From positions 1,380,001 through 1,412,000 of the forward strand of contig NZ_CP021983.2 of the NCBI RefSeq assembly GCF_002075285.3: a stretch of DNA of 32,000 nucleotides, read 5' to 3'. Source of the stretch: Halomicronema hongdechloris C2206. Lineage in GTDB: Bacteria; Cyanobacteriota; Cyanobacteriia; Phormidesmidales; Phormidesmidaceae. Both the position numbers and the translations under genes were made by a program. Shown here in pieces: positions 1 through 32,000 of this stretch. Every line of letters starts with the position of its first letter. The first letter of the stretch is position 1. The notes below the pieces were generated by a model that did no database searches, was not told the origin of the DNA, and was given only the letters and a program-made list of their open reading frames with translations.

Positions 1-414
1 CTGGGTGCGGTCTTCGGCCATATCGAGCCGCACCAGAATGGCATTGTGTAGCGACTGTCGCAAGCGATCTTCTACCTCTGTCCATACGGCAGCAATCAGC
101 GTTTTTTCGTTGCCGTCCTTACGGGTGGGTTGCGGCTGCGTTTCTGGCAATCCATAAAAGTAGGCGCTTGAGGCTGCCAGCACCTCCTGCAATACCAGTT
201 TTAAGGTTTCTGCATCCATCCCCTGATGAATCACCACCCGGTTGTTATCACCCAAGATGTTGTCACTTCCCGTGACAATCTTTGCGCCAGTTGCATCGCG
301 GGCGATCGCCACCGCTCCCTGACCAGACGCACTGACCTCCGCCAGTAGCGCCTGAAGGTTTTCCTGAGGGAGCTCCTTCAGTGCCGCTTTCAGGTTTTCC
401 AGGCTATCTGACAT
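1..414 (-). CDS. STAND-class NTPase (NB-ARC/NACHT-like), first 138 codons only; the gene continues past the left edge
   Basis: This ORF is absent from the ORF track because it runs off the window. The ATG is at 414..412, 8 nt after the caspase stop codon, and I checked every in-frame triplet down to nt 1 and found no stop. Translation: MSDSLENLKAALKELPQENLQALLAEVSASGQGAVAIARDATGAKIVTGSDNILGDNNRVVIHQGMDAETLKLVLQEVL...KTLIAAVWTEVEDRLRQSLHNAILVRLDMAEDRTQ. The W.EV..RL.QSLHNA.L..L stretch resembles the conserved segment just upstream of the P-loop in cyanobacterial NB-ARC/NACHT repeat proteins. The P-loop itself lies outside the window. Confidence 0.6.
   Translation of the reverse strand, partial: MSDSLENLKAALKELPQENLQALLAEVSASGQGAVAIARDATGAKIVTGSDNILGDNNRVVIHQGMDAETLKLVLQEVLAASSAYFYGLPETQPQPTRKDGNEKTLIAAVWTEVEDRLRQSLHNAILVRLDMAEDRTQ
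302..309. repeat. HIP1 (GCGATCGC) highly iterated palindrome; one representative copy of at least 26 in the window
   Basis: Other copies read directly include 1873..1880, 2991..2998, 5490..5497, 5659..5666, 6558..6565, 7558..7565, 8135..8142 and 29685..29692. Fewer than one copy of an 8-bp palindrome is expected by chance in 32 kb. Confidence 0.9.
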
Positions 415-422
415 CAAACCAC

Positions 423-1469
423 TTACTCCTTGTCAGCTTGATCAGCACCAAAAGTGTCACCAATGTGCAAACCCTGGATATTGTCTCCCATGCTGATGTT
501 GTACTTACCTTTTTGATTCACAGTCTGCACTCGGTTATTGTTGCCAACGATGTTGCCCTGTCCAGTAACAATCGTTGCCCCCTGCGCGTTCTGAACCGCA
601 ACTGCGCCATCTCCTGAAGCTGCGATCGTGGTTTGAATCATTTGGCCGTTCAATTCACCAGGCTGTGACTCAATCCGAGGCTTGGATGCTAACTCAGGCG
701 GCAGGCCCTTCGGCTGCAGATCGCCTCCGGCATAGTACGCCAGCACAAAGTTATCGGCCTTCTCAATGTCCAGCACAGGGTGTTGTTTATCGCTGGTCAA
801 TGTCGGCACAATGCGGCTGGCATACATCGCTAAATCCGTCGCCCGAATGTAGCCATCTTGCTGGGTGGCTCCTTCCCCACATAATCCCTTCATCAGGGCA
901 TAGGTAAAGGCACTGTAGGGTTCTCCGGCATAGGACAACTCATCTGGCCGTGAGGAGCCAATCATGATGCGTCCGCCTCCTTTGGCAAACATCCTTTGCG
1001 CTTCCGGCGGCAGCGGAGCTTTGGTCGCTGCAAAGGCAGAGACATCACTTAATCCGCCAGCATGGCAGCAATCCAGCATCACCAGCAGTTTCTGCGCCGG
1101 AATCTCGCGCAGGTAATCCACAAACTCACTGCCGCTAATGGCGGTCTCATCCAAAGCTTCAGTGTTGTAGCCGTAGGGCATTAAAAAATAAGACTTAAAC
1201 GGCTTTTGCAGTTGGTGGCCATGTCCTGAGAAATAAATCAGCACCGTCGAATCGTCGTCGGTTGAATTCGCTAAGGTCTCCAAAGTTTGCAAAATCTGGC
1301 TGCGGGTTGCCTTTTCCCCCGTAAGGAAATGCACCTGGCTTTCTGGATAGGCACAGCGCTCGGGGTCTTGCAGAACCTTCGCCAGACCTTTAGCATCGGT
1401 GGCGGTAGTCGGCAAATCGCCACCGACTCCAATCACGCAAGCATGCCCTTGTTCAAAAAGGTGACTCAT
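423..1469 (-). CDS. Orthocaspase / peptidase C14 caspase-like protease with a C-terminal Gly/Asn-rich tail
   Basis: 348 aa with an ATG start confirmed at 1469. The catalytic dyad contexts are VLIYFSGHGH (His) and LLVMLDCCHAGG (Cys), typical of the caspase/metacaspase p20 fold. The last 65 aa (nt 426..620) read ASGDGAVAVQNAQGATIVTGQGNIVGNNNRVQTVNQKGKYNISMGDNIQGLHIGDTFGADQADKE and are not part of the protease fold. Confidence 0.85.
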   Translation of the reverse strand: MSHLFEQGHACVIGVGGDLPTTATDAKGLAKVLQDPERCAYPESQVHFLTGEKATRSQILQTLETLANSTDDDSTVLIYFSGHGHQLQKPFKSYFLMPYGYNTEALDETAISGSEFVDYLREIPAQKLLVMLDCCHAGGLSDVSAFAATKAPLPPEAQRMFAKGGGRIMIGSSRPDELSYAGEPYSAFTYALMKGLCGEGATQQDGYIRATDLAMYASRIVPTLTSDKQHPVLDIEKADNFVLAYYAGGDLQPKGLPPELASKPRIESQPGELNGQMIQTTIAASGDGAVAVQNAQGATIVTGQGNIVGNNNRVQTVNQKGKYNISMGDNIQGLHIGDTFGADQADKE

Positions 1470-1652
1470 TTCTGTTTGCCCTCAACTGGAAAATCCTTCG
1501 AGTCTTCCGCCATTATGACCTCGCCGCTAAGAAGGGTTAGCGTTTTTTAGCAATAAAATTTAGTCTTACGATGACTTAGCCATGTTTTTTTGCAGGCAGG
1601 AGTCGTGAGCTGTAGTCATAACAATTGAGATCGCCCTTCAACCCATCTCCCC

Positions 1653-3185
1653 ATGAAACTCCATCCCACTCCCTGGCTGAGCCTGACACTCTCCCTGCTG
1701 GGCTGCCTCCCGGCCCAACCCAGTTTGGCCCAAACAACTGTTATCGTTACCCCTGAAGCCCTGACGGCAACCGGAATGCGCGGGGAAGCTGAACCGGCAA
1801 TCCGAACTTTGGCGATTCGAGCAACTGAGCCCGTAACCGATTTGCAAATCCACACTCTGGATTTGTACAGTCGCGATCGCGATCGAGTTTTCCCCCAAGC
1901 CCTGATTACCGTTCCCACGACCATCAGCTCAGTTGAGGTAGGTACCCTGACCACTTTGCCAGTTGCGTTTAATCTGCAGGCTGCTCCCAGTGGTGAATTT
2001 CAAGGATCGTTACTGTTAAGCTACGGCGGCGACCAGGTAACCGTTCCAATCACGGTTCGCGTGAAAGATGCCTGGTACTTGCCATTGGCACTATTGATTT
2101 TGGGCGTGATTCTCGGCACCACTGTTTCTAGCTACAGCCGTTGGGGAAAAACAACCGATGAGTTGACGGTCGGCATTGAAACGCTACGCACCCTAGTTCA
2201 AAAGGATTCAGAGATCCCTCCTTCATTTGCCTCTGGCATTGCAGTGTATCTGGCCGATGCCCACTTAGCCCGCGATGTCAAACAACTGGAAAAATCTCGG
2301 CAGTCCCTTAATGCCGCTGGTGAGATGTGGGGCAAATGGTTTCGGGAACGTCCAGCGTGGCTGAGTGCTTTACAGGCAGGCAAGGAATTACAGTCTCAGC
2401 TTGCCGAACAACTCACAGCGGTAAGCCAAGCGCCCTATCTGCAAACGATTCAGTCTAATTTGCAGACGGTGTTAGACAATGTTGCTAACTTTGACAATGC
2501 CGCAGCGTTAGGGCAAACCATCAACCGTTTTTCACAGCAATCGACCCAATATCTGAGAGTTCTCCAGCAATATCGCCAGTTTCAGCAAACCCTGGAAGAA
2601 CTTAATCCCGATGCCTTACCACCCTCCGATCAAGAAACCCTACAGGATATGATTTCTCGGGCTGATGCCTGGAAAGAAATCCTCGTGACCCTGCGACCTT
2701 CTGACTCCGGCGATGATCCCCAACTACAAACCATTGGTTTAGCCATAGCCGAGGCTAAACCGGTTCTAAATACTTTGAAACAGAAAGCAGAGGATTCTGT
2801 TCCTGTGGATGGCTTGCGAGAATTTAAGCCAGGGAAAGGCAAAGCAGCCATAGAAACCAGTCCCCCCTCAGAAGTAGCAATGCCTCAAACAACAGTAATG
2901 GAATCTCCTGTCCCTGCCTTAGACGATACCTTCGTATTCAACGGCATTGCTACCCTGATCAAAAATCCCAAACAACGTCTCAAGCTGTTTGCGATCGCGG
3001 GCTATCTCACCACCATCGGCTTTTTGGCTGGAACCGGCTTCAACCAGCTTTATCTGGAGAACCCGACGTTCGGTTCAAGTGGACTGCGGGATTATTTTGC
3101 CCTCCTAGCTTGGGGCTTTGGCGCAGAAGCGACTCGCAGTGCGGTTACCAATGCCCTGCGACGAACCGATGGTGCGAGAGACTGA
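1653..3185 (+). CDS. Hypothetical secreted, membrane-anchored protein (signal peptide, beta-rich ectodomain, TM, long helical region, C-terminal TM pair)
   Basis: 510 aa with ATG at 1653. The N-terminus MKLHPTPWLSLTLSLLGCLPAQPSLAQT looks like a signal peptide. A TM segment WYLPLALLILGVILGTTVSSY follows a roughly 120-aa beta-rich region. C-terminal hydrophobic segments are LFAIAGYLTTIGFLAGTGF and YFALLAWGFGA. I recognise no catalytic motif. The gene is divergent from the caspase gene across a 183-bp spacer. Confidence 0.6.
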   Translation: MKLHPTPWLSLTLSLLGCLPAQPSLAQTTVIVTPEALTATGMRGEAEPAIRTLAIRATEPVTDLQIHTLDLYSRDRDRVFPQALITVPTTISSVEVGTLTTLPVAFNLQAAPSGEFQGSLLLSYGGDQVTVPITVRVKDAWYLPLALLILGVILGTTVSSYSRWGKTTDELTVGIETLRTLVQKDSEIPPSFASGIAVYLADAHLARDVKQLEKSRQSLNAAGEMWGKWFRERPAWLSALQAGKELQSQLAEQLTAVSQAPYLQTIQSNLQTVLDNVANFDNAAALGQTINRFSQQSTQYLRVLQQYRQFQQTLEELNPDALPPSDQETLQDMISRADAWKEILVTLRPSDSGDDPQLQTIGLAIAEAKPVLNTLKQKAEDSVPVDGLREFKPGKGKAAIETSPPSEVAMPQTTVMESPVPALDDTFVFNGIATLIKNPKQRLKLFAIAGYLTTIGFLAGTGFNQLYLENPTFGSSGLRDYFALLAWGFGAEATRSAVTNALRRTDGARD

Positions 3186-3504
3186 CTGCTATCGTTTTCA
3201 CACGTGGTCTCTAGCTAACCATGGCCAGAGTAGTACACAAACACCGTTACTCCTTAATAAGCGATCTCTTGACCTTCAACAACTCAAAACTGTTCAGGAT
3301 TGCCTGCTGAGTTGTGCCTTCATGATGCAGTAGTCTCAAATACTGCTCATTGTCAGGATAGGCACACAACCTACTCCAGGTAAGAAGAGCGTATCCATGG
3401 ACAAAGTTCTTTTCCATTGCTTAACACCAATCCTAAAAACAACTTTGCGTAAAGCTAATTGAAACAGAATGGTCTTCATTTCATGTAGCCTCTTTCAGAG
3501 TATT

Positions 3505-5781
3505 TCAAGTATTCAACGGCAAGATTAAGCCATCCTCAATTTCTTGGATCAGGTGAGTATTGGAGTGATCCCCACTATGCAAGCATTCAACCAAAATATA
3601 GTTTGCATTATAGTATTCAATTAGCTTCTCTTTCTCAGCGTCAGAGAAGCCCCAGTCATAACCAAAATCGCGATACTTTACCATTAAATTTCTTAGACTT
3701 ATAATCCACTCCTCGCCGTGCTTTTGCCACCAAACGTTCATTTTTTCGGCTTCACAAGGTCCCCAAAGGCGCGTTTTCAGCCACCAGTCCGGCAATGCAT
3801 CGATGAGTTTCTGGATTTCATCGCCGATTTCCTTACTTTTCGAAAGATATGAAAGCTCATTTGGAATTATTTGTTCAAGAACGATGGGAACTGCAAATCT
3901 TAATTGGGGCGACAGAGCAGTCTTGAGATTTCTATCAACTGCAAATTCGCAAATCAGAAGCTCATCTTCTTCTGGATTTTCACCAGGAAGATGATCAAAG
4001 TTCAGATGAATTCCTAACGCATAAGGAAGCTCTGTAAAACTGTCTGAATCATCGAAAGCCAAAATCAATGCTAAAGCCCGCAAAGATGACGGTTGATAAG
4101 AGTATTTAAAGGTATTAGCTTTTCTGCTTACCCAACTCAAAAAACACTGAAACTTTTCGTCCTCAAGATAAAGATCAATCTCGTGTTTCGTTGTACGAAA
4201 TAAAGCATCTAGATCTTGAGTATTGTCTATGACGAGTAAGAATACCTCTTTCCAGTGTTCTTTATAGAGTTGTCGTGCTAAATCCTTCCAATTGTTAGAG
4301 GTATAGAATGGTCTGGAAACTAAGTACTCTTGAAAAGTTAAGTGGGAAAACGACCAGATTTCATGAGCTTGCTCAACTAAGATTCCATGCTGCTCTGAAA
4401 TACTTTCTAGTACTGCTCCACTTTCCTCGGTCGAAATCTGAAGATGCTCTGCGATGTAACTACAGGCTTCTGCTTTGTCAAATAATACAAAATTTTCTGT
4501 TTGCTCAAACTTGCGAACTGCTAAGTAGCTTAGTAATTGCTTTCGTTCCTCCAGTGTTAGTTGCCGATAGATTTCACTCTTTGTCTCTCGATTGATTCCT
4601 CGTCGGTCATCCCATTGTCCTAGCAGTAAATCCAACCCTTCCCGATACAGATCAGACCGTTTTTCTGGTAAGCACTGAGAGTCTTCAAAAATCCAACACG
4701 TCAAACTCAAGAGCACTGGTGTTACCGCAAGTTCAGCGGTTTGCGGATGTTCACCAAGCTTTTCCATGAAGTGCTCTTTTAGCGCTTCACCTTCTTCCGG
4801 TGTCTCCACTATTGCCGTAAACCAGTTCAAAGCGAAGCTTTCTACCTGCTCTGGCTTAAAGTCTGCTACCTCTATGGGGATGAACTGTTCTGGAATGTAT
4901 TTCGTCGTTTGAGTACGACAAGTCAGCACAAAGCGATTTTTGTCGTATTGTTTGGCAAACCTTCGCAGTTCATCCTGTACTTTTGGCTGTAAAACGCTGG
5001 AGACTTCATCTAGACCGTCCAACAAAACCATAACTTTTCCTTGCCTTAGAAGTTGCTTGGTTTGCTCTTCTTCGGCTAATTCAAATTCCTCATGGATATG
5101 CCGAAACAGGCTAAATTCAGCTTCATCAACATCCCGTAGCTCAAGCAAATAGGGGATGTAGTTTTCTAGAAAATCACCTTTGGCACAGCCTACTGCTAAG
5201 TGCCTCAAAAATGTGCTTTTCCCGGAACCCGGCTTCCCTAAGACCATCAACCGAGGATATTCTTCGCTTTCGGCGATTTGTAACCCCTGTAACCGCTCTC
5301 CTCTTTTTGCCAGACCCAATCGGTCAAACTGCTTTCGGACATTCTGCCCTTTAAGTAATTCTGGAATATTGGCTCGATAATCCTGTACTTCCAGAACATA
5401 AACATCTACATAAAGCTGATCGACATCAACCTGGCGTCTATTCAGGAGCTGAATCTTACCGAAATTTCTGAGGCCTTTCTCTGATGCTCGCGATCGCACC
5501 TGCTCAATAATTGAGTCAATGGGTGCTGGCGGAGGACGAAGATATTGACGAATGATTTCCGCATCGGCTCCCTCGAAGATGATGTTGCCATCACCGATGA
5601 TGTTGTGATCGCCAGTAATCAGCACTGCATTATCCGCGTTCCCCCCCATGGCCAAAGCGCGATCGCCGGTAACCAGCGTGGCCTGGCCGGATTGAATTGC
5701 CTCTACTAACTGCTGTTGCTGTTCCGGAGTTAAGGATGTGCCCACAACACGCTGAATGATGGATTTGAGGTCTTGAGGCAT
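3505..5781 (-). CDS. NACHT-family STAND NTPase with an N-terminal Gly/Asn-rich adaptor-like motif
   Basis: The ORF-track start at 5793 is a TTG. The first ATG is at 5781 (MPQDLKSIIQRV...). Walker A is LGKPGSGKSTFL, Walker B is VMVLLDGLDEV, followed by FVLTCRT. The pre-P-loop segment QLLNRRQVDVDQLYVDVYVLE is typical of cyanobacterial NACHT proteins. N-terminal aa 31-71 (nt 5569..5691) read SGQATLVTGDRALAMGGNADNAVLITGDHNIIGDGNIIFEG. The C-terminal roughly 300 aa show no WD40 or TPR repeats that I can see. Confidence 0.8.
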   Translation of the reverse strand: MPQDLKSIIQRVVGTSLTPEQQQQLVEAIQSGQATLVTGDRALAMGGNADNAVLITGDHNIIGDGNIIFEGADAEIIRQYLRPPPAPIDSIIEQVRSRASEKGLRNFGKIQLLNRRQVDVDQLYVDVYVLEVQDYRANIPELLKGQNVRKQFDRLGLAKRGERLQGLQIAESEEYPRLMVLGKPGSGKSTFLRHLAVGCAKGDFLENYIPYLLELRDVDEAEFSLFRHIHEEFELAEEEQTKQLLRQGKVMVLLDGLDEVSSVLQPKVQDELRRFAKQYDKNRFVLTCRTQTTKYIPEQFIPIEVADFKPEQVESFALNWFTAIVETPEEGEALKEHFMEKLGEHPQTAELAVTPVLLSLTCWIFEDSQCLPEKRSDLYREGLDLLLGQWDDRRGINRETKSEIYRQLTLEERKQLLSYLAVRKFEQTENFVLFDKAEACSYIAEHLQISTEESGAVLESISEQHGILVEQAHEIWSFSHLTFQEYLVSRPFYTSNNWKDLARQLYKEHWKEVFLLVIDNTQDLDALFRTTKHEIDLYLEDEKFQCFLSWVSRKANTFKYSYQPSSLRALALILAFDDSDSFTELPYALGIHLNFDHLPGENPEEDELLICEFAVDRNLKTALSPQLRFAVPIVLEQIIPNELSYLSKSKEIGDEIQKLIDALPDWWLKTRLWGPCEAEKMNVWWQKHGEEWIISLRNLMVKYRDFGYDWGFSDAEKEKLIEYYNANYILVECLHSGDHSNTHLIQEIEDGLILPLNT

Positions 5782-5907
5782 TTCTTGAGGCAAACGTCGC
5801 TATGTCGTTCTTCACAATCATACCTACTCTACTCCTCCCTCTGTGGAACTGGATCAGCGACAATTCAAGAGCTTTAATAACTTCAGTGATACATTTCCTC
5901 GCTGCAG

Positions 5908-7356
5908 CTAACGTTCTAAAGCCTCACAGCCGCTCGGGCGGATTGGACTCAGAGAATGTGTTTGCTGTAGCCGTTTTGCCTCAACCATAAATCGCTGTTT
6001 ATCTAAGTGCGTCACCTTTGATAGCTCAACCACAAATCCCCTTGCTTGAAATATCAAACCACGTGAAGCTGCTCTCACGATCAGATGCTGTCCTTCAGAC
6101 TCAAAAGTGTATGTATGGCCATGTAGCAAACGCTTTCGCGGCGACCAGTCATCCCGATCTGTGTGGTGTTTAGCTGTTTGAATAGTTGGCGATTGTCTCA
6201 AAATGTAATGCAGGTCCCTCACCACATTCTGGAGTTCTCCTCCCTTCAGATAACCCCCAGCCGATAGCTCTGCTTGATTAGTCTGTCCGATTGAAGAGTA
6301 GCTTGGATATTTGAGATGACTTAAGGCCTGCACCCGTTTCCAGGCACTCTCATCCCCACCTGCAAAAACCGCTGCTGGAATACACTTCTCGGGGTCAACA
6401 ATACTTTGAATAATCCGCTCTACCCGTTCGACATCAATTCCTAAAGCTGCCCCAGCTTCCTTCGCCAACGCCTCAGCATCTCCATTAATCGGCACCCCAT
6501 GCTCAGTAGCCCAATTCTCCCAGCCATAGAACTCGCGTAGAGCATAGGTCAGGGAGTGCGATCGCGACTCCAAGGGGCTCTCCCCCTGCAGCACCGCCTG
6601 AGCCTTGGCCGTCGCCAGGTCTTCCAGCCGTAATACTCCTGGTTGGGCAGGGTGTACCTGAATTGGGGGCCGAAGGTGAGTTGGTTCACTCTGACCTCGT
6701 CTACGGCTAACCGGATACACCCCAATCGCCTCCAACCGTTCCACCCACACGGGTGATACCCGCTGCAAGTTGACATAAGACTGTCCACTGGGGCCAATCG
6801 TTGGTGCGAGTACTGTAAAGCGTCCTTGGCCCAGGGCTTCCCCCATGTGCTGACCGCCCAACCCATCCAGCGAGAAGTTGGTGAAGCGTTTTTCTGGAAC
6901 TCGCACAGCAAACCGCCAGCCACCACTATGGGTCCGTTCTGTAAAAGTTTGCTGCAGTCGAGGATGCTGGCTGAGCCAGTGGCTGATGCGGGCATTACAG
7001 GCCTCTTGGGAGCCAAACTGTTTTACGTCCACATCGAGCCAAACCAGGTTCTGCCATCCTCCCAAAGTACCGATGCCATTGGCAGGATGAGTAAACCAGG
7101 TCCGGAACTCTTGCTCAGTCGGAAGCTGGTGCTGATATTGAGTGTGGCGGATCAGATGAGGAATGCCATTGGCATCCAGAAAGCTAGGATTTTTGCCCGT
7201 AAAAGCAGGGATTAAGGCTCCATTTGAGTCGCGCTTCAACGTGCCGTCTCGCTCCCTTGCCGGATACTGCTGAGGATGCTGAGCAGGCGCTATGGGTAAA
7301 GGGGGCAATCCCTGAGCCTTGAGCCAGTCAAAGGTTTTTCGTAAGTCTGGTTTCAT
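5908..7356 (-). CDS. Bifunctional DNA primase/polymerase (archaeo-eukaryotic primase superfamily, PrimPol N-terminal domain) with a C-terminal extension
   Basis: 482 aa with ATG confirmed at 7356. Motifs are FTGKNPS, NLVWLDVDVK (acidic metal-binding motif) and ERTHSGGWRFAVRV (the sGG.H-type motif of plasmid and phage PrimPol domains). The C-terminal 57-aa module (nt 5959..6129) is shared with two neighbouring proteins; see findings. Confidence 0.7.
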   Translation of the reverse strand: MKPDLRKTFDWLKAQGLPPLPIAPAQHPQQYPARERDGTLKRDSNGALIPAFTGKNPSFLDANGIPHLIRHTQYQHQLPTEQEFRTWFTHPANGIGTLGGWQNLVWLDVDVKQFGSQEACNARISHWLSQHPRLQQTFTERTHSGGWRFAVRVPEKRFTNFSLDGLGGQHMGEALGQGRFTVLAPTIGPSGQSYVNLQRVSPVWVERLEAIGVYPVSRRRGQSEPTHLRPPIQVHPAQPGVLRLEDLATAKAQAVLQGESPLESRSHSLTYALREFYGWENWATEHGVPINGDAEALAKEAGAALGIDVERVERIIQSIVDPEKCIPAAVFAGGDESAWKRVQALSHLKYPSYSSIGQTNQAELSAGGYLKGGELQNVVRDLHYILRQSPTIQTAKHHTDRDDWSPRKRLLHGHTYTFESEGQHLIVRAASRGLIFQARGFVVELSKVTHLDKQRFMVEAKRLQQTHSLSPIRPSGCEALER

Positions 7357-27882: not shown

Positions 27883-28464
27883 CTAGCCAGTAATCAGGGT
27901 TGTCAGGATATCGCCAGCGGTGACAGCAATGATGATAATGAGCGGTGTGCGGGCGATCGTTTGCCAATCCTCATCTTGGCGAGCCCCGTTAATCACTCGT
28001 ACCAGCGAGATGCCCACGTAGAGCAAAAAGAGACCGCGCAAAACGTTGAAGACCAGCGGAATCGCGTCTCCCGTTGCGGCTCCAAAGTTAGTTTGCATCC
28101 AAGTTTCGGCCCCGCCAAAGAATTGTGCTTGGGCCGGAAAAGCCAATACGGTCAGAAGTGACAGCAAACTCAGACCAATGGCCAGAATCGTTTGGCGGCG
28201 GGCGGTCCAACCTCTGGAAGCTTTCGCGGAGGGACCTTTGTCGCTGGTCGCTTCTTGATGCCAAATCAGGCCCAAGCCGCTACCGGCCATCACGAGCAAG
28301 AGCAAAGCTGAACCGTGAAGCACAAAATTAGCGCTCATAAATCCCACCATGATCGCAGCCAGTAGCGAGCATGGCAATTGATAAAAAGAATGGGTGATTT
28401 GGGCTACAAAATCGAATCGATAAACCAGATTTTCTGCGCGTACTTTTGAGTGCTGACTGATCAT
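27883..28464 (-). CDS. VirB2/TrbC-like pilin precursor with an unusually long N-terminal extension (tentative)
   Basis: 193 aa with ATG at 28464. The C-terminal part reads ...LSLLSLLTVLAFPAQAQ/FFGGAETWMQTNFGAATGDAIPLVFNVLRGLFLLYVGISLVRVINGARQDEDWQTIARTPLIIIIAVTAGDILTTLITG. This is a leader ending AQA, then two hydrophobic helices separated by a charged loop and a Gly-terminal end, as in VirB2 and TrbC. It is the first gene of the operon. Confidence 0.45.
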   Translation of the reverse strand: MISQHSKVRAENLVYRFDFVAQITHSFYQLPCSLLAAIMVGFMSANFVLHGSALLLLVMAGSGLGLIWHQEATSDKGPSAKASRGWTARRQTILAIGLSLLSLLTVLAFPAQAQFFGGAETWMQTNFGAATGDAIPLVFNVLRGLFLLYVGISLVRVINGARQDEDWQTIARTPLIIIIAVTAGDILTTLITG

Positions 28465-28565
28465 TTCAGTCTCCTTGAATCAGGTCAGCCTGTCTTGACT
28501 CGCGAACCTTAAAAGATGCCTTGAGCAATTCAATTTCCGGGAAGATTTGATCACTATAGCAATGA

Positions 28566-28597
28566 TTTTCAGGAACCGGGATCAAACATCCTGAAAA
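28566..28597. repeat. Inverted repeat TTTTCAGGA-(14 nt)-TCCTGAAAA
   Basis: The 9-bp arms at 28566..28574 and 28589..28597 are perfectly complementary, read directly. The repeat lies about 100 nt upstream of the pilin-like gene start. Confidence 0.7.
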
Positions 28598-28740
28598 CTC
28601 AAAGGGCATCTATCCATAGCTAAAGGCTAGCTGGGATCTTCAAATGGTGGGCGGCTTCTGTAACGATGCGTGATTTTAATCAAGCTTTTGAGGACTTAAG
28701 CAGGAATACTGAGAAGCCTCTTTTGACTGATACATTTTCC

Positions 28741-28781
28741 AATAGAGAGACAGATTAACTTGATATGTATTGCTCTCTATT
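28741..28781. repeat. Inverted repeat AATAGAGAG-(23 nt)-CTCTCTATT
   Basis: The 9-bp arms at 28741..28749 and 28773..28781 are perfectly complementary, read directly. Confidence 0.7.
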
Positions 28782-28806
28782 TAGATGATTAGCAATGTCG
28801 TGATTA

Positions 28807-28818
28807 GTCAATATTGAC
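28807..28818. repeat. 12-bp perfect palindrome GTCAATATTGAC
   Basis: Read directly. It is flanked upstream by a TGATTAG direct repeat (tgattagcaatgtcgtgattag). Confidence 0.7.
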
Positions 28819-28880
28819 CCAGCCGCTTAACAGAAATTTCCTTCAATCGCCAAAAGAATTAAATTTTGGATGATCTCTTT

Positions 28881-28892
28881 TTCGAATTCGAA
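28881..28892. repeat. 12-bp perfect palindrome TTCGAATTCGAA
   Basis: Read directly. Confidence 0.7.
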
Positions 28893-28967
28893 TTTCTGAC
28901 TCAAAGATGCGCTTAAAAGTGAACATCAATGGGCAATTATTGTTGAGCACACAAAAGTTAAAGCGTT

Positions 28968-28999
28968 TTGACGTCAATACGTCTTGACGCTTTGACGCT
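28968..28999 (+). repeat. TTGACG(C/T) iterons upstream of parA; candidate centromere or operator
   Basis: TTGACGTC is at 28968, and TTGACGCT occurs twice in tandem at 28984..28999. AATGGC follows twice (29001..29006 and 29010..29015). Type Ib par loci usually carry their centromere/operator repeats upstream of parA. Confidence 0.45.
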
Positions 29000-29012
29000 A
29001 AATGGCTTTAAT
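28984..29012 (+). promoter_or_regulatory. Candidate sigma70-type promoter for parA
   Basis: TTGACG (28984..28989), a 17-nt spacer, then TTTAAT (29007..29012), about 80 nt upstream of the parA ATG. It overlaps the iterons, which fits autoregulation. Confidence 0.3.
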
Positions 29013-29858: not shown

Positions 29859-30305
29859 ATGAATGAAGATGCCCTGGAAAGACTGATGCAACGGCAGCGC
29901 CCGGTAGTGCCGCCACGATCTGACGGTCTGGAGGAAACGTCCCGTGTGAAGTCTCGTCAACCGGCTGCAGATGCAGCCGTGACATCAAGATACAGTGACT
30001 CTGATGAGTCTGCAGGTGTTGACGTCAGCATGTCTATGAGTCAGGGTGAAGGGGCTGATCTGCCCCAGTTGGTGCGTACGACCACGCGGTTGGAAGAGGA
30101 GATTGATAAGGCGCTAAGGCATCTCTGCATGGATGAGAAGATCACCAAGGAGGTGTGGTTTGAAGCGGCGTATCAGTATCTAGCGGAGCATCCCAAGGCG
30201 ATGAAGGTGGTGAATGGGATGGCGAAGGAGCGGTATCAACGGCGGAAGCGGGCAGCGGATTTAAGGAAGTTGGAGACGATGCAGAAGCGGTTAAAGGGAT
30301 CGTGA
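29859..30305 (+). CDS. Probable ribbon-helix-helix centromere-binding partition protein (ParG/omega-like)
   Basis: 148 aa, starting 3 nt after the parA stop. A disordered N-terminal half is followed by LVRTTTRLEEEIDKALRHLCMDEKITKEVWFEAAYQYLAEH, which fits a beta-strand plus two-helix RHH pattern, and then a basic tail. Confidence 0.5.
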   Translation: MNEDALERLMQRQRPVVPPRSDGLEETSRVKSRQPAADAAVTSRYSDSDESAGVDVSMSMSQGEGADLPQLVRTTTRLEEEIDKALRHLCMDEKITKEVWFEAAYQYLAEHPKAMKVVNGMAKERYQRRKRAADLRKLETMQKRLKGS

Positions 30306-30355
30306 GCTACCATCCAAGAAAATAGTTTAAAGAGTGATCTTTCTATATAACCGCA

Positions 30356-32000
30356 ATGCCTCTTCCTGAATCTTTTGCTGCTGGAGCCTTTGCGGCAGGA
30401 ATCGCAACGAATCTTGCAAGCGATATCCTTACCCATCATGCTGCCTCGCTCGACAATTCGGTCATTGGCAAAGCCTTGAAATGGGCAGGTTTTGCTCAAC
30501 CTAATTTTCAAGAAAGGCTACGGGATGCCCTGGAAAAAGCTTTGAAACTTTATTTTAGTGAGTATTCACAGAGACAGGCCTTGGGGGTCGATGAGTTTTT
30601 TCAAAATTCTGTAGTGGTCGAACAGATTGGGGGGGCAATCTTGAATCGGGCTCCTTTAGATAGGGCAGCACTGCAAGATGCCTGGAAAGCATATCTGAGC
30701 GCGAACCCAGTTTTGTCACTTTTGAATCAGCAGCAGAACTTTACCGCTGTAGAAATTATTGACGATTTTTTGGGTTGTTATCGGCGAGTTTTGAGAGAGC
30801 AGCAGAGCATACCAGAACTAGCCATTACTTATGACCTTCTGGAGCAAAGAGAAGAGTTCATAAGAGAACTGGAGGCTAGTGAGGAGAGACTAAAAAATTA
30901 TGTTTCTGAGCTTCTGAAGTACAGATCTTTAATTCAGGAAAAAGACACTTCATTTTATGGTCGAGAAATTGAAGAGAAAATCAAGGAGATTATTAATGAA
31001 TATGCTCATCAACCGTTTGCAGGGCGTTCTAATGAACAACTAGATATTGATCGATTTCTCGAAATAAATAATAAAGGAGTTTTATTGGTAACTGCACCAG
31101 CAGGATTCGGGAAATCTGCACTCTTAATAAATTGGCAGCAAAGATATCGAGAAGATTCCTACATTGTCTTTCACTGCTTCCGGTCTAATTCCGATATCGT
31201 AAGTTCGCTTCAAAATGGTTACCGACATCTTTTAAGGCAACTCCTCCATTACCACAAGCAGAGATATCGAGAGTTTCCCAAGGATGAAAGTGAGATGCGA
31301 GATCTACTTTGCGATCTTATTCAATCCGGCGCTTCTACAGGAGACCGTTTAATTATTATGATTGACGGTTTAGATGAAGCCGATAAAGTTCTGGAACCCT
31401 TTTGGGGATCATCACTACCTGACGGAGTCTACATCATTGCATCAGCTAGAGCCGATAAAAAAGATGAACCAGACTATTTAAAGAATTGGATTATAAATGC
31501 AAAAAGAATGGCGCTGGAACGTTTGCCAATCGAGGCAATTGCAGACTGGTTAAAAAGAGTTAATGAATTAGCTCCTTATGCAACAGACAACTCTTTTATC
31601 GAGACATTAGACAGAATTACTGTGGGCTTCCCTTTATATTTGAAATACCTGATAGATGATTTAAGGTTAGCGGTCATACAGAAACAAGACATCAAGCCTT
31701 TAGTGGCAAAAACTCATAAAGGATTCTCAGTTTATGTAAAAGATCAATTTAAACTTTTAGCTAAGCTTGACGAAGTTCAACAACGAGCGGAAACCCAAGA
31801 ATTATTTGTATTATTGACAGTAGCCCGAGGTCCACTCTCTGAGGATGATATTCAAGTAATCACAAGTTTGACTTCTTGGAATTTGGAAGCGCTTCCTTGG
31901 CAAATCACTCGTTGGTTCAGCATCCGTTCTGGCTTTTATAGTTTTGCCCATCCACTTTTAGCTCAAGAATTTGCGAGTGTTTTAGGCCAACAAGGCCGGA
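30356..32000 (+). CDS. STAND-class P-loop NTPase (NACHT/AAA-like) with a roughly 230-aa N-terminal domain; 3' end outside the window
   Basis: Absent from the ORF track because it runs off the edge. I translated by hand from the ATG at 30356 to nt 32000 and met no stop. Walker A is LLVTAPAGFGKSALL, Walker B is RLIIMIDGLDEA, followed by VYIIASARA. The N-terminus reads MPLPESFAAGAFAAGIATNLASDILTHH... Confidence 0.75.
   Translation, partial: MPLPESFAAGAFAAGIATNLASDILTHHAASLDNSVIGKALKWAGFAQPNFQERLRDALEKALKLYFSEYSQRQALGVDEFFQNSVVVEQIGGAILNRAPLDRAALQDAWKAYLSANPVLSLLNQQQNFTAVEIIDDFLGCYRRVLREQQSIPELAITYDLLEQREEFIRELEASEERLKNYVSELLKYRSLIQEKDTSFYGREIEEKIKEIINEYAHQPFAGRSNEQLDIDRFLEINNKGVLLVTAPAGFGKSALLINWQQRYREDSYIVFHCFRSNSDIVSSLQNGYRHLLRQLLHYHKQRYREFPKDESEMRDLLCDLIQSGASTGDRLIIMIDGLDEADKVLEPFWGSSLPDGVYIIASARADKKDEPDYLKNWIINAKRMALERLPIEAIADWLKRVNELAPYATDNSFIETLDRITVGFPLYLKYLIDDLRLAVIQKQDIKPLVAKTHKGFSVYVKDQFKLLAKLDEVQQRAETQELFVLLTVARGPLSEDDIQVITSLTSWNLEALPWQITRWFSIRSGFYSFAHPLLAQEFASVLGQQGR

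What the first reader, a model, noticed from the sequence alone, without database searches (positions are those of the whole stretch)
3505..5793. A second, unlinked NACHT gene carries the same adaptor-like motif, suggesting one effector serving two sensors
The NACHT protein N-terminus (nt 5569..5691) reads SGQATLVTGDRALAMGGNADNAVLITGDHNIIGDGNIIFEG. This is the same SG..., ..ITGD.NI.GD.N.. pattern seen in the caspase tail and the STAND gene at 1..414. No effector gene is adjacent to it; its neighbours are a convergent membrane-protein gene and PrimPol. Two different sensor NTPases within 6 kb could therefore converge on the single motif-bearing caspase. That would be a many-sensors, one-executioner arrangement. 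The NACHT C-terminal roughly 300 aa lack obvious WD40 or TPR repeats and may form a novel sensor domain.
Basis: partly seen in the sequence, partly recalled or inferred. Interest (0 to 1): 0.65.

Follow-up and report, generated by a model that had tools for sequence, protein, structure and literature searches.

The report
EAD10-adaptor NACHT sensor beside a caspase
The gene is an ordinary member of a published class of cyanobacterial immune-type sensors (EAD10-NACHT-NCH2).

Summary
Window 5569..5691 (-) encodes exactly the quoted peptide, and it is the beta-rich core of Pfam EAD10 (PF19954). The same core occurs in the STAND fragment at 1..414 and in the caspase tail.

The gene at 3505..5781 encodes EAD10-NACHT-NCH2. 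Its C-terminus is therefore not a novel domain: NCH2 (PF22727) scores 85 bits and the region is predicted all-helical.

The gene is not "unlinked". The caspase, membrane-protein and EAD10-STAND block is conserved. All six other contexts of this NACHT lineage that I examined have a caspase gene within 10 kb. In Leptolyngbya PCC 6406 the caspase follows immediately, as a two-gene cassette among housekeeping genes.

Several EAD10 NTPases per single EAD10-tailed caspase recur across loci. This fits the many-sensors, one-executioner reading, but it is the published "EAD principle" (Kaur et al. 2020, 2021). No interaction is shown. Core identity between NACHT and caspase tail (41-42%) is only at family background level.

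Extras:
- The caspase tail is a helix-less tandem of two EAD10 core flavours.
- The NACHT is a three-module recombinant.
- An uncharacterised membrane protein is the caspase's conserved divergent partner.
- The island is cargo of a conjugative element.

The parts
3505..5781 (-). NACHT gene, 758 aa from the ATG at 5781 (the mechanical ORF extends to a TTG at 5793). Architecture is EAD10-NACHT-NCH2.
   Evidence: Walker A (G182-T190) and Walker B (D255-E259) are invariant in a 57-sequence alignment. AF2 mean pLDDT is 83 and the top fold matches are NLRC4, NOD2 and NLRP3.
5542..5781 (-). I call this flavour 'B'.
   Evidence: Pfam EAD10 scores 27.4 bits on the N-terminus alone. DNA of 5540-5832 is 75-81% identical to the 5' ends of two NB-ARC-TPR genes in L003. 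GC3 is 0.53 here against 0.40 for the rest of the gene. AF2 gives H3-14, H19-30 and H71-81, with the core at 31-70 at low confidence.
4320..5541 (-). NOD module (aa 81-487): NACHT P-loop NTPase plus helical and winged-helix parts.
   Evidence: Pfam NACHT scores 68.7 bits. The module is about 90% identical to P0002, P0004, P0005, P0006 and P0007, whatever their N- and C-terminal modules.
3505..4319 (-). C-terminal all-helical sensor module (aa 488-758), ending in NCH2 (about nt 3517-3816). This module is swapped between orthologues.
   Evidence: Pfam NCH2 PF22727 scores 85.1 bits. Identity is 83% to P0002 but about 22% to P0004, P0006 and P0007. There is no DNA match to L001 for 3325-4318. GC is 0.40-0.43. 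AF2 predicts helices only, pLDDT 85-95.
1653..3185 (+). Uncharacterised 510-aa membrane protein, divergent from the caspase gene and convergent with the NACHT gene. It is the conserved partner of this caspase family.
   Evidence: No Pfam or NCBIfam family. Homologues at 32-90% identity are divergently paired with the caspase in L001, L003, L004, L006, L007, L062, L064, L066-L069, L071 and L072. TM segments at aa 137-162 and 445-463.
423..1469 (-). Caspase (Peptidase_C14, 348 aa) with a conserved C-terminal adaptor tail.
   Evidence: Pfam scores 69.2 bits. NCBIfam caspase_w_EACC1 scores 97 bits, below its cut-off of 140. The H83 and C134/C135 motifs are invariant in 74 homologues. AF2 folds the catalytic domain confidently but the tail 277-348 is below pLDDT 50.
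528..638 (-). Caspase tail core-1 (aa 278-314, ...ASGDGAVAVQNAQGATIVTGQGNIVGNNNRV): the long EAD10 beta-core of the A/B flavour, without flanking helices.
   Evidence: A custom HMM built from STAND N-termini scores it 26.5 bits. Alignment in register with the NACHT and STAND cores is shown.
450..536 (-). Caspase tail core-2 (aa 312-340, QKGKYNISMGDNIQGLHIGDTFG): the short 'type C' EAD10 core.
   Evidence: An HMM built from type-C N-termini (Q.GKYNVNIG.G.DI.IGDR) scores it 17.7 bits. The best Pfam EAD10 stretch in the tail falls here. It is conserved family-wide.
1..414 (-). N-terminus of the STAND gene immediately downstream of the caspase (cut by the window edge). It carries EAD10 flavour 'A'. 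The L003 orthologue is a full NACHT-NCH2 protein.
   Evidence: Pfam EAD10 scores 48.3 bits. L003 11059-13617 is 90% identical over 95 aa and has EAD10+NACHT+NCH2.

Best explanation
The gene at 3505..5781 encodes a bacterial NLR-like STAND sensor with three modules:
- an N-terminal EAD10 adaptor;
- a NACHT NTPase switch;
- an all-helical C-terminal sensor ending in NCH2.

It belongs to a conserved, mobile 'EAD10 island' in filamentous cyanobacteria. The hub of the island is a caspase whose C-terminal tail carries helix-less copies of the EAD10 beta-core, paired divergently with an uncharacterised membrane protein. Several NTPases with N-terminal EAD10 surround this hub.

Proposed mechanism (inferred, not shown): an invader cue sensed by the C-terminal module triggers NTP-dependent oligomerisation of the NACHT. 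The clustered EAD10 cores then capture or template the caspase tail through homotypic beta-core contacts. Proximity activates the caspase, which executes cell suicide or dormancy. The adjacent STAND (1..414) and the NACHT would thus be parallel inputs to one protease.

Shown here: domain identities, synteny, recurrence of many NTPases per caspase, and the modular recombination. Inferred: the interaction, its specificity, and the output.
For: Domains:
- EAD10, NACHT and NCH2 are identified.
- The NLR fold is confirmed.
- The NTPase motifs are intact.

Shared core:
- The same core is aligned in register in the NACHT, the STAND and the caspase tail.

Linkage:
- L001 has the same NACHT, membrane and caspase order at 85-87% DNA identity.
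- All six other contexts of this NACHT lineage contain a Peptidase_C14 gene within 10 kb: L001, L002, L066, L070, L071 and L072.
- In Leptolyngbya sp. PCC 6406 (L070) the NACHT is followed at once by a tailed caspase, between housekeeping genes. In L002 the two genes are also adjacent and co-directional.

Many sensors per caspase:
- L003 has 3 EAD10 NTPases per caspase, L062 has 4 and L066 has at least 4. L001, L006 and L007 have 2 each.

Adaptor module tied to the locus:
- The same B-flavour EAD10 cassette (DNA 75-81% identical) heads NB-ARC-TPR genes in L003 and L062.
- The cassette has the local GC3 (0.53), unlike the NACHT body (0.40).

Literature:
- Kaur et al. define EADs as coupling adaptors. 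EAD10 is listed among those that recruit effectors, and multiple same-EAD proteins occur per genome (PMC7159879; PMC8195603).
- Kibby et al. list EADs as N-terminal adaptors and NCH as C-terminal domains of bacterial NACHT proteins.
- CARD-mediated protease recruitment is experimentally shown in bacteria (PMC10312443).
Against: - No interaction data exist for any EAD10.
- Core identity between the NACHT and the local caspase tail is 41-42%, inside the cross-locus background of 28-63%. The tail is clearly closer to the adjacent STAND (63%). So there is no specific co-evolution signal.
- The NACHT gene is convergent to the membrane gene and cannot be co-transcribed with the caspase.
- Its body is compositionally foreign (GC 0.40-0.44 against 0.52-0.57) and mosaic. 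It may therefore be a recent arrival matched to another effector.
- Effectors with full EAD10 of similar flavour exist elsewhere, for example TIR-EAD10 (P0130) and EAD10-CHAT (L068).
- AF2 gives no confident fold for the beta-core in either protein.
- Only 32 kb of the source genome is visible, so other EAD10 effectors cannot be excluded.
Confidence: 0.6

Rival explanations
1. The NACHT uses its EAD10 to recruit a different EAD10-bearing effector encoded elsewhere in the genome (for example TIR-EAD10, EAD10-CHAT or another caspase). Its position near this caspase reflects clustering of defence genes on a mobile island, not a functional pair.
For: - The core match to the local caspase is at background level, and the tail matches the adjacent STAND better.
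- The NACHT body has foreign GC and is a recombinant.
- The gene is convergent, so it is not in an operon with the caspase.
- Other EAD10 effectors exist in relatives.
- Kaur et al. note that further EAD copies lie elsewhere in genomes.
Against: - All six other contexts of this lineage have a tailed caspase-family gene within 10 kb. These include a minimal two-gene cassette in PCC 6406, where core identity is only about 32% by my own hand count on the sequences printed. Low identity therefore does not argue against pairing.
- No other EAD10 effector is present in the 32-kb window.
- The B-flavour EAD10 cassette stays at this locus while the NTPase bodies change.
Confidence: 0.22
2. The N-terminal EAD10 serves the NACHT itself, in self-association, autoinhibition or membrane/partner tethering, or the gene is a decaying mosaic passenger. 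On this reading the motif shared with the caspase reflects common ancestry only.
For: - AF2 does not give a confident independent fold for the core.
- The orthologue in L002 appears frameshifted, and the adjacent STAND in L001 is truncated. Members of these islands therefore do decay.
Against: - The ORF is intact with all NTPase motifs.
- The EAD10 architectural pattern, with one copy on an NTPase terminus and one on an effector nearby, is exactly what defines coupling adaptors.
- The caspase tail is strongly conserved across more than 80 of the 121 family members scanned (120 database relatives plus the window's own caspase), although it is predicted unstructured. This implies a partner-dependent function.
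Confidence: 0.1
3. The resemblance is chance similarity of low-complexity G/N/I/V-rich sequence.
For: The segment is short and compositionally biased. The full-length Pfam score (22.6 bits) is just under the gathering score.
Against: - Composition-adjusted BLASTP gives E 2e-4 and 3e-8.
- Pfam scores 27.4 bits on the isolated N-terminus.
- phmmer finds 174 cluster representatives at E<=1e-3 among 1.84 billion proteins. Of 99 of these scanned with Pfam, 49 match EAD10 and at least 58 are STAND NTPases.
- The flanking helices are conserved and aligned in register.
Confidence: 0.02

Closest known systems
EAD-coupled NTP-dependent conflict systems of multicellular bacteria (Kaur, Burroughs, Iyer, Aravind 2020, PMC7159879; 2021, PMC8195603), specifically EAD10 (Pfam PF19954)
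   Same: - A small non-catalytic domain sits at the N-terminus of a STAND or VMAP core, with another copy on an effector encoded nearby.
- Several same-EAD proteins occur per genome.
- EAD10 is described as mixed alpha+beta and effector-recruiting.
- Related loci here also couple the same caspase to VMAP/MoxR/vWA ternary systems.
   Different: - The caspase copy is not a full EAD10. It has only the beta-core, in two tandem flavours, without the flanking helices.
- That copy is below Pfam's threshold in this protein.
- A conserved membrane-protein partner of the caspase did not turn up in the passages of those papers that I read.
Bacterial NACHT (bNACHT) antiphage proteins (Kibby et al., bioRxiv 10.1101/2022.07.19.500537)
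   Same: - A central NACHT module.
- N-terminal adaptor class including EADs.
- C-terminal NACHT C-terminal helical (NCH) domains.
- Many paralogues in cyanobacteria, with effector and sensor modules shuffled.
   Different: No tested bNACHT corresponds to this protein. NCBIfam EruA matches only weakly (25.5 bits against a cut-off of 1000). Defence activity is untested.
Bacterial amyloid signalling sequences (BASS) shared by NLRs and effector C-termini (Dyrka et al., bioRxiv 10.1101/2020.01.06.895854) and the Bab/Agp system (10.1101/2024.11.07.622273)
   Same: - A short motif rich in G, N, V and I at the effector C-terminus and the NLR N-terminus of neighbouring genes.
- Pseudo-repeats in the effector and a single copy in the NLR.
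- The motif region is predicted unstructured in the monomer.
- Multicellular cyanobacteria. CHAT/caspase effectors are reported in that work.
   Different: In the NTPases the core is embedded between conserved helices. Membership of BASS1-10 could not be checked because the logos are not held. No amyloid evidence exists for this motif.
CARD-NLR-like, protease and gasdermin defence systems (Wein et al., PMC10312443) and animal inflammasomes/apoptosomes
   Same: A STAND sensor recruits a protease through a homotypic adaptor. The protease then activates a membrane-acting executioner. Several sensors can feed one caspase in animals.
   Different: The adaptor is not Death-fold, there is no gasdermin homologue, and the membrane protein here is unrelated and of unknown role.
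EACC1-caspase two-gene membrane-associated system (Kaur et al. 2020, System 4)
   Same: A caspase of a related subfamily (NCBIfam caspase_w_EACC1, 97 bits) sits next to a membrane-protein gene that has a glycine-rich TM helix.
   Different: The score is below the cut-off of 140. The membrane protein has no EACC1 match, is 510 aa long and is divergently transcribed.

Membership tests
EAD10 (Pfam PF19954) | Profile match at or above the gathering score (24.1 bits) | tested here: met
   27.4 bits (E 3.4e-6) for aa 1-115 alone. Within the full protein it scores 22.6 bits, so it is borderline. Orthologues P0002, P0004 and P0005 carry precomputed EAD10.
EAD10 (Pfam PF19954) | Terminal position on a core NTPase, with a second copy on an effector encoded nearby | tested here: met
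   It lies at the N-terminus of the NACHT. The caspase tail 2 kb away carries the core. The pattern repeats in at least 10 related loci.
EAD10 (Pfam PF19954) | Small, non-enzymatic, mixed alpha+beta domain | tested here: inconclusive
   AF2 predicts helices at 3-14, 19-30 and 71-81. The core at 31-70 has pLDDT 46-66, with only short strands.
EAD10 (Pfam PF19954) | Homotypic interaction that couples effector to core | not testable with these tools
   No multimer prediction or experiment was available.
EAD-coupled conflict systems (Kaur et al.) | [quoted passage not shown] | tested here: inconclusive
   This holds for the caspase tail vs the adjacent STAND in the window (63%), in L019 (61%) and in L066 (62-68% to B-type STANDs). 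It does not hold for the NACHT vs the local tail (42%, within the 28-63% background), nor in L003 and L062.
NACHT STAND NTPase (PF05729) | Profile match, Walker A/B motifs and NLR-like NOD fold | tested here: met
   68.7 bits against a gathering score of 26.7. GxPGxGKT and DGLDE are invariant. Foldseek top hits are NLRC4, NOD2 and NLRP3, with E down to 5e-11.
NCH2 (PF22727) | Profile match at the C-terminus of a NACHT protein | tested here: met
   85.1 bits against a gathering score of 27, at aa 660-759. The region is predicted helical.
BASS amyloid signalling motifs | Motif of about 25 aa shared by the effector C-terminus and the NLR N-terminus of adjacent genes, with G/N/Q/V/I bias | tested here: met
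.
BASS amyloid signalling motifs | Match to one of the BASS1-10 consensus motifs; amyloid or prion behaviour | not testable with these tools
   The motif logos are figures that are not held. No biophysical data are available.
EACC1-caspase system | Caspase passes the NCBIfam caspase_w_EACC1 cut-off and the neighbour has an EACC1 domain | tested here: not met
   97 bits against a cut-off of 140. The membrane protein has no EACC1 hit.
CARD-NLR/gasdermin systems | Death-fold adaptor and gasdermin effector | tested here: not met
   No CARD/Death or gasdermin family appears in Pfam or PADLOC scans of the cluster.

The most novel reading that the evidence does not exclude
The caspase tail is a helix-less tandem of two different EAD10 beta-core flavours: the long ASG..ITGD.N type and the short GKYN..IGD type. 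It acts as a universal socket that folds only when templated by clustered EAD10 cores of activated NTPases, in an amyloid-like or beta-solenoid manner akin to HET-s/NWD2. One protease could then integrate inputs from sensors carrying distinct adaptor flavours (STAND A, B and C types and VMAP/MoxR systems). The conserved, uncharacterised membrane protein encoded divergently from the caspase would be the protease's substrate or executioner, as a gasdermin analogue.
Probability: 0.2. Interest if true: 0.7.

Novelty: new member of a known kind. Interest (0 to 1): 0.3.

Why it matters
The finding gives a clean, compact example of the bacterial counterpart of inflammasome logic: modular NLR-like sensors plugged into a shared caspase through a short adaptor, carried on a conjugative element. 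The principle, the adaptor family and both other domains are already catalogued, so the finding adds an instance, not a concept.

Three things could be worth an experiment:
- the bipartite, helix-less adaptor tail of the caspase;
- the conserved membrane partner of unknown function;
- the sharp recombination junctions that swap adaptor and sensor modules around a nearly invariant NACHT core.

These offer natural chimeras for testing adaptor specificity.

Tried and rejected
- **Word-indexed search with the EAD10 alone.** I replaced it with exhaustive phmmer.
- **Exact-sequence look-up of the window's own protein.** It failed, and the source genome is not among the GTDB representatives. The full STAND gene upstream of the window and a genome-wide EAD10 census were therefore not obtainable.
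- **Hexapeptide (left-handed beta-helix) periodicity of the tail.** Autocorrelation is positive at lag 6 but equally so at lag 8, and the sequences are not independent. I do not claim this.
- **Co-variation of the caspase tail with a specific partner.** I first thought the L001 tail tracked its NACHT-HEAT neighbour and the window tail its STAND. The wider identity matrix shows no consistent rule. The minimal L070 pair has only about 32% core identity by my own hand count on the sequences printed, so identity is not a usable specificity measure.
- **Promoter and terminator scan of 1400-6000.** It gave fewer hits than shuffles.
- **PDB sequence search.** It found only NACHT/AAA+ matches, and nothing for EAD10 or NCH2.
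- **PADLOC.** It gave only generic hits: PDC-S60, a caspase model and a weak LeoA match.
- **BASS family assignment.** It could not be made from the held text.
Full report
**1. Observation**

The ORF at 3505..5793 (-) is real. The likely start is the ATG at 5781. The database copy of the protein (P0001, 758 aa, from a 5.58-Mb contig) and the orthologues begin there, and DNA similarity to related loci stops there.

Pfam assigns three domains:
- EAD10 (PF19954) at the N-terminus: 22.6 bits in the full protein and 27.4 bits, E 3.4e-6, when the first 115 aa are scanned alone. The gathering score is 24.1.
- NACHT: 68.7 bits.
- NCH2 (PF22727): 85.1 bits at aa 660-759.

The truncated gene at 1..414 is a clear EAD10 (48.3 bits). 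The caspase (423..1469, Peptidase_C14) matches EAD10 only weakly in its tail (15.9 bits, two stretches).

Composition-adjusted BLASTP gives:
- NACHT vs caspase tail: 13/32 identical, E 2e-4.
- NACHT vs STAND fragment: 18/47, E 3e-8.
- STAND fragment vs tail: 26/53, E 7e-11.

A profile alignment puts all three cores in register.

**2. What the gene is**

The protein has intact Walker A and B motifs, invariant in 57 homologues. Its AF2 model has mean pLDDT 83, and the best structural neighbours are NLRC4, NOD2 and NLRP3.

The C-terminal 270 aa are predicted entirely helical at pLDDT about 85-95 and end in NCH2.

The NACHT-NCH2 family is very large in cyanobacteria: 2376 hits at E<=1e-5 among the candidates scored. 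Its N-termini vary and include EAD10, HTH, CHAT and others. This matches published descriptions of bacterial NACHT proteins.

**3. Mosaic structure**

The protein has three modules with discordant relationships:

| Module | vs P0004/P0005 | vs P0002 | vs P0006/P0007 |
|---|---|---|---|
| EAD10, aa 1-100 | 78-81% | 39% | about 40% |
| NOD core, aa 100-450 | about 90% | about 90% | about 90% |
| C-terminus, aa 500-758 | about 22% (P0004 only; P0005 ends at about aa 550) | 83% | about 22% |

DNA comparison places the junctions at about nt 5540 (aa 80) and about nt 4319 (aa 487). The 240-bp EAD10 cassette is 75-81% identical to the 5' ends of two NB-ARC-TPR genes in Leptolyngbya sp. CCNP1308 (L003). 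The EAD10 part has the local composition (GC 0.53, GC3 0.53). The rest of the gene is GC 0.40-0.44 (GC3 0.40), against flanks of 0.52-0.57.

I infer that recombination swaps adaptor and sensor modules around a conserved NTPase, and that this adaptor flavour stays with the locus.

**4. Surroundings and related loci**

The window block 130..3366 (STAND N-terminus, caspase, membrane gene) is about 87% identical to L001 and L003.

Across 12 or more loci the invariant hub is the caspase plus a divergently transcribed membrane protein with no family assignment. Membrane-protein identity ranges from 32% to 90%. The most distant examples are Gloeothece verrucosa, a Nostoc plasmid and Scytolyngbya.

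The gene immediately after the caspase always starts with an EAD10 that I call flavour A. Its body varies:
- NACHT-NCH2 (window, L003)
- NACHT (L062)
- NB-ARC-TPR (L006)
- NACHT-HEAT (L007, L066)
- NB-ARC/APAF1-like (L019)
- VMAP, or a 320-aa protein followed by MoxR and vWA (L067, L069, L071)

Further EAD10 NTPases lie nearby. L003 has three in all, L062 has four and L066 has at least four. In L066, L068 and L069 the gene just downstream of the membrane gene is an EAD10-STAND. In the window and L001 that slot holds the finding's NACHT, in inverted orientation. The gene is thus part of a conserved cluster and is not "unlinked".

The rest of the window encodes a conjugative apparatus: TrwB/TraG coupling protein, TrbI, M23 peptidase, ParA, and a Strawberry-notch-like helicase. 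L006 and L068 are plasmids, and L002 lies next to a TrwC relaxase. The island is mobile-element cargo.

**5. Does this NACHT lineage go with a caspase?**

I examined six other genomic contexts of EAD10-NACHT-NCH2 orthologues. All have a Peptidase_C14 gene within 10 kb: L001, L002, L066, L070, L071 and L072.

The clearest case is Leptolyngbya sp. PCC 6406 (L070). The NACHT is followed directly by a tailed caspase, and the pair is flanked by G6PD/OpcA and TatC-type housekeeping genes. In L002 the two genes are also adjacent and co-directional, though both look frameshifted.

This argues that the lineage does signal through such caspases.

**6. Specificity**

Core identity between the window caspase tail and the adjacent STAND is 63%. 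Against the NACHT it is 42%, and the cross-locus background is 28-63%. In L066 the tail matches the B-flavour STANDs best (62-68%). In L003 and L062 it matches none well (41-44%). In the L070 minimal pair identity is only about 32%, by my own hand count on the sequences printed.

Sequence identity therefore neither supports nor excludes a NACHT-caspase pair here. No specific co-evolution is demonstrated.

**7. The caspase tail**

The tail is conserved across the family (556 relatives at E<=1e-10) and has two parts:
- Core-1 (aa 278-314) is the long ASG..GA.AI..A.GATI.TG..N.VG core, as in flavours A and B. A custom HMM scores it 26.5 bits.
- Core-2 (aa 312-340, QKGKYNISMGDNIQGLHIGDTFG) matches the short core of a third flavour, C (Q.GKYNVNIG.G.DI.IGDR). 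That flavour occurs at the N-termini of other NTPases and of an EAD10-CHAT protein. An HMM scores core-2 at 17.7 bits.

The best Pfam EAD10 stretch in the tail is core-2. I scanned 121 family members: 120 database relatives plus the window's own caspase. Of these, 86 have core-1 and 84 have core-2. Longer members place TIR or CHAT after the tail.

The tail lacks the helices that flank the core in NTPases. AF2 leaves it below pLDDT 50 even though the catalytic domain is confident. The core in the NACHT is also low-confidence. This is compatible with folding on assembly, as proposed for amyloid-type signalling motifs, but it does not show it. The A/B/C labels are my own informal grouping from a small sample.

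**8. Comparison with the known**

Kaur et al. 2020 define EADs as coupling adaptors found on a core component and on effectors encoded nearby or elsewhere, with many same-EAD proteins per genome. They list EAD10 as an alpha+beta, effector-recruiting EAD. The 2021 paper restates the principle.

JGI already names some relatives "Caspase domain/Effector-associated domain 10". Of 99 cluster representatives carrying this EAD10 type, at least 58 are STAND NTPases and only a few are effectors (TIR_2 2, FGS 2).

The experimentally supported analogue is CARD-mediated protease recruitment in bacterial gasdermin systems.

**9. Verdict**

It is wrong on "unlinked" and on the novel C-terminal domain, unproven for this particular pair, and already a published principle. 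It is a new member of a known kind, and I rate interest at 0.3.

The most novel reading not excluded is a templated, dual-flavour adaptor tail together with a membrane executioner. I give it a probability of about 0.2.

Noticed in passing
window 1653-3185 (+); homologues in L001, L003, L004, L006, L007, L062, L064, L066-L069, L071, L072: A 510-aa membrane protein with no Pfam, NCBIfam or PADLOC family. It has a signal-like N-terminus, a beta-rich segment, a TM at about aa 137-162, a long helical region and a Gly-rich TM at aa 445-463. It is divergently paired with this caspase family across distant cyanobacteria (32-90% identity). It is a candidate substrate, executioner or sensor of the caspase.
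   Followed up: partly
window 450-638 (-), caspase aa 278-340: The caspase tail is a tandem of two different EAD10 beta-core flavours without the flanking helices. It is conserved family-wide but predicted unstructured (pLDDT <50). In longer relatives it sits between the caspase and a TIR or CHAT domain (L002, L005, L066).
   Followed up: yes
window 3325-4318 and 5540-5781: The NACHT gene has sharp recombination junctions. The C-terminal module has no DNA match in the otherwise syntenic L001. The 240-bp EAD10 cassette is shared with NB-ARC-TPR genes in L003 and L062. GC3 jumps from 0.40 to 0.53 at the EAD10 junction.
   Followed up: yes
window 7387-30305: The rest of the window looks like a conjugative or integrative element:
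- a 1895-aa Strawberry-notch-like helicase with DUF6908 and MutS_I domains;
- an N6-methylase-like gene;
- a TrwB/TraG coupling protein;
- an M23 peptidase;
- a TrbI/VirB10-like protein;
- ParA.
A similar helicase flanks the EAD10 island in L066.
   Followed up: partly
L001 6250-6513: In this syntenic metagenomic contig the STAND gene downstream of the caspase is truncated after about 35 codons. The caspase, the membrane gene and the NACHT are retained, and an EAD10-NACHT-HEAT gene lies 2 kb further on.
   Followed up: partly
L070 10001-13845 (Leptolyngbya sp. PCC 6406, KI913949.1): A minimal two-gene cassette, EAD10-NACHT-NCH2 followed by a tailed caspase, sits between housekeeping genes with no membrane-protein gene. 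It would be a good system for testing the pairing experimentally.
   Followed up: partly
L067, L069, L071 (downstream of the caspase): The same caspase and membrane hub is coupled to EAD10-VMAP or 320-aa proteins plus MoxR (AAA_5) and vWA (CoxE-like) genes, in place of STAND NTPases. This is the VMAP ternary system of Kaur et al.
   Followed up: no
window 28001-29000 and 30001-32000: GC drops to 0.45, 0.46 and 0.395 at the far end of the window. These stretches were not examined.
   Followed up: no
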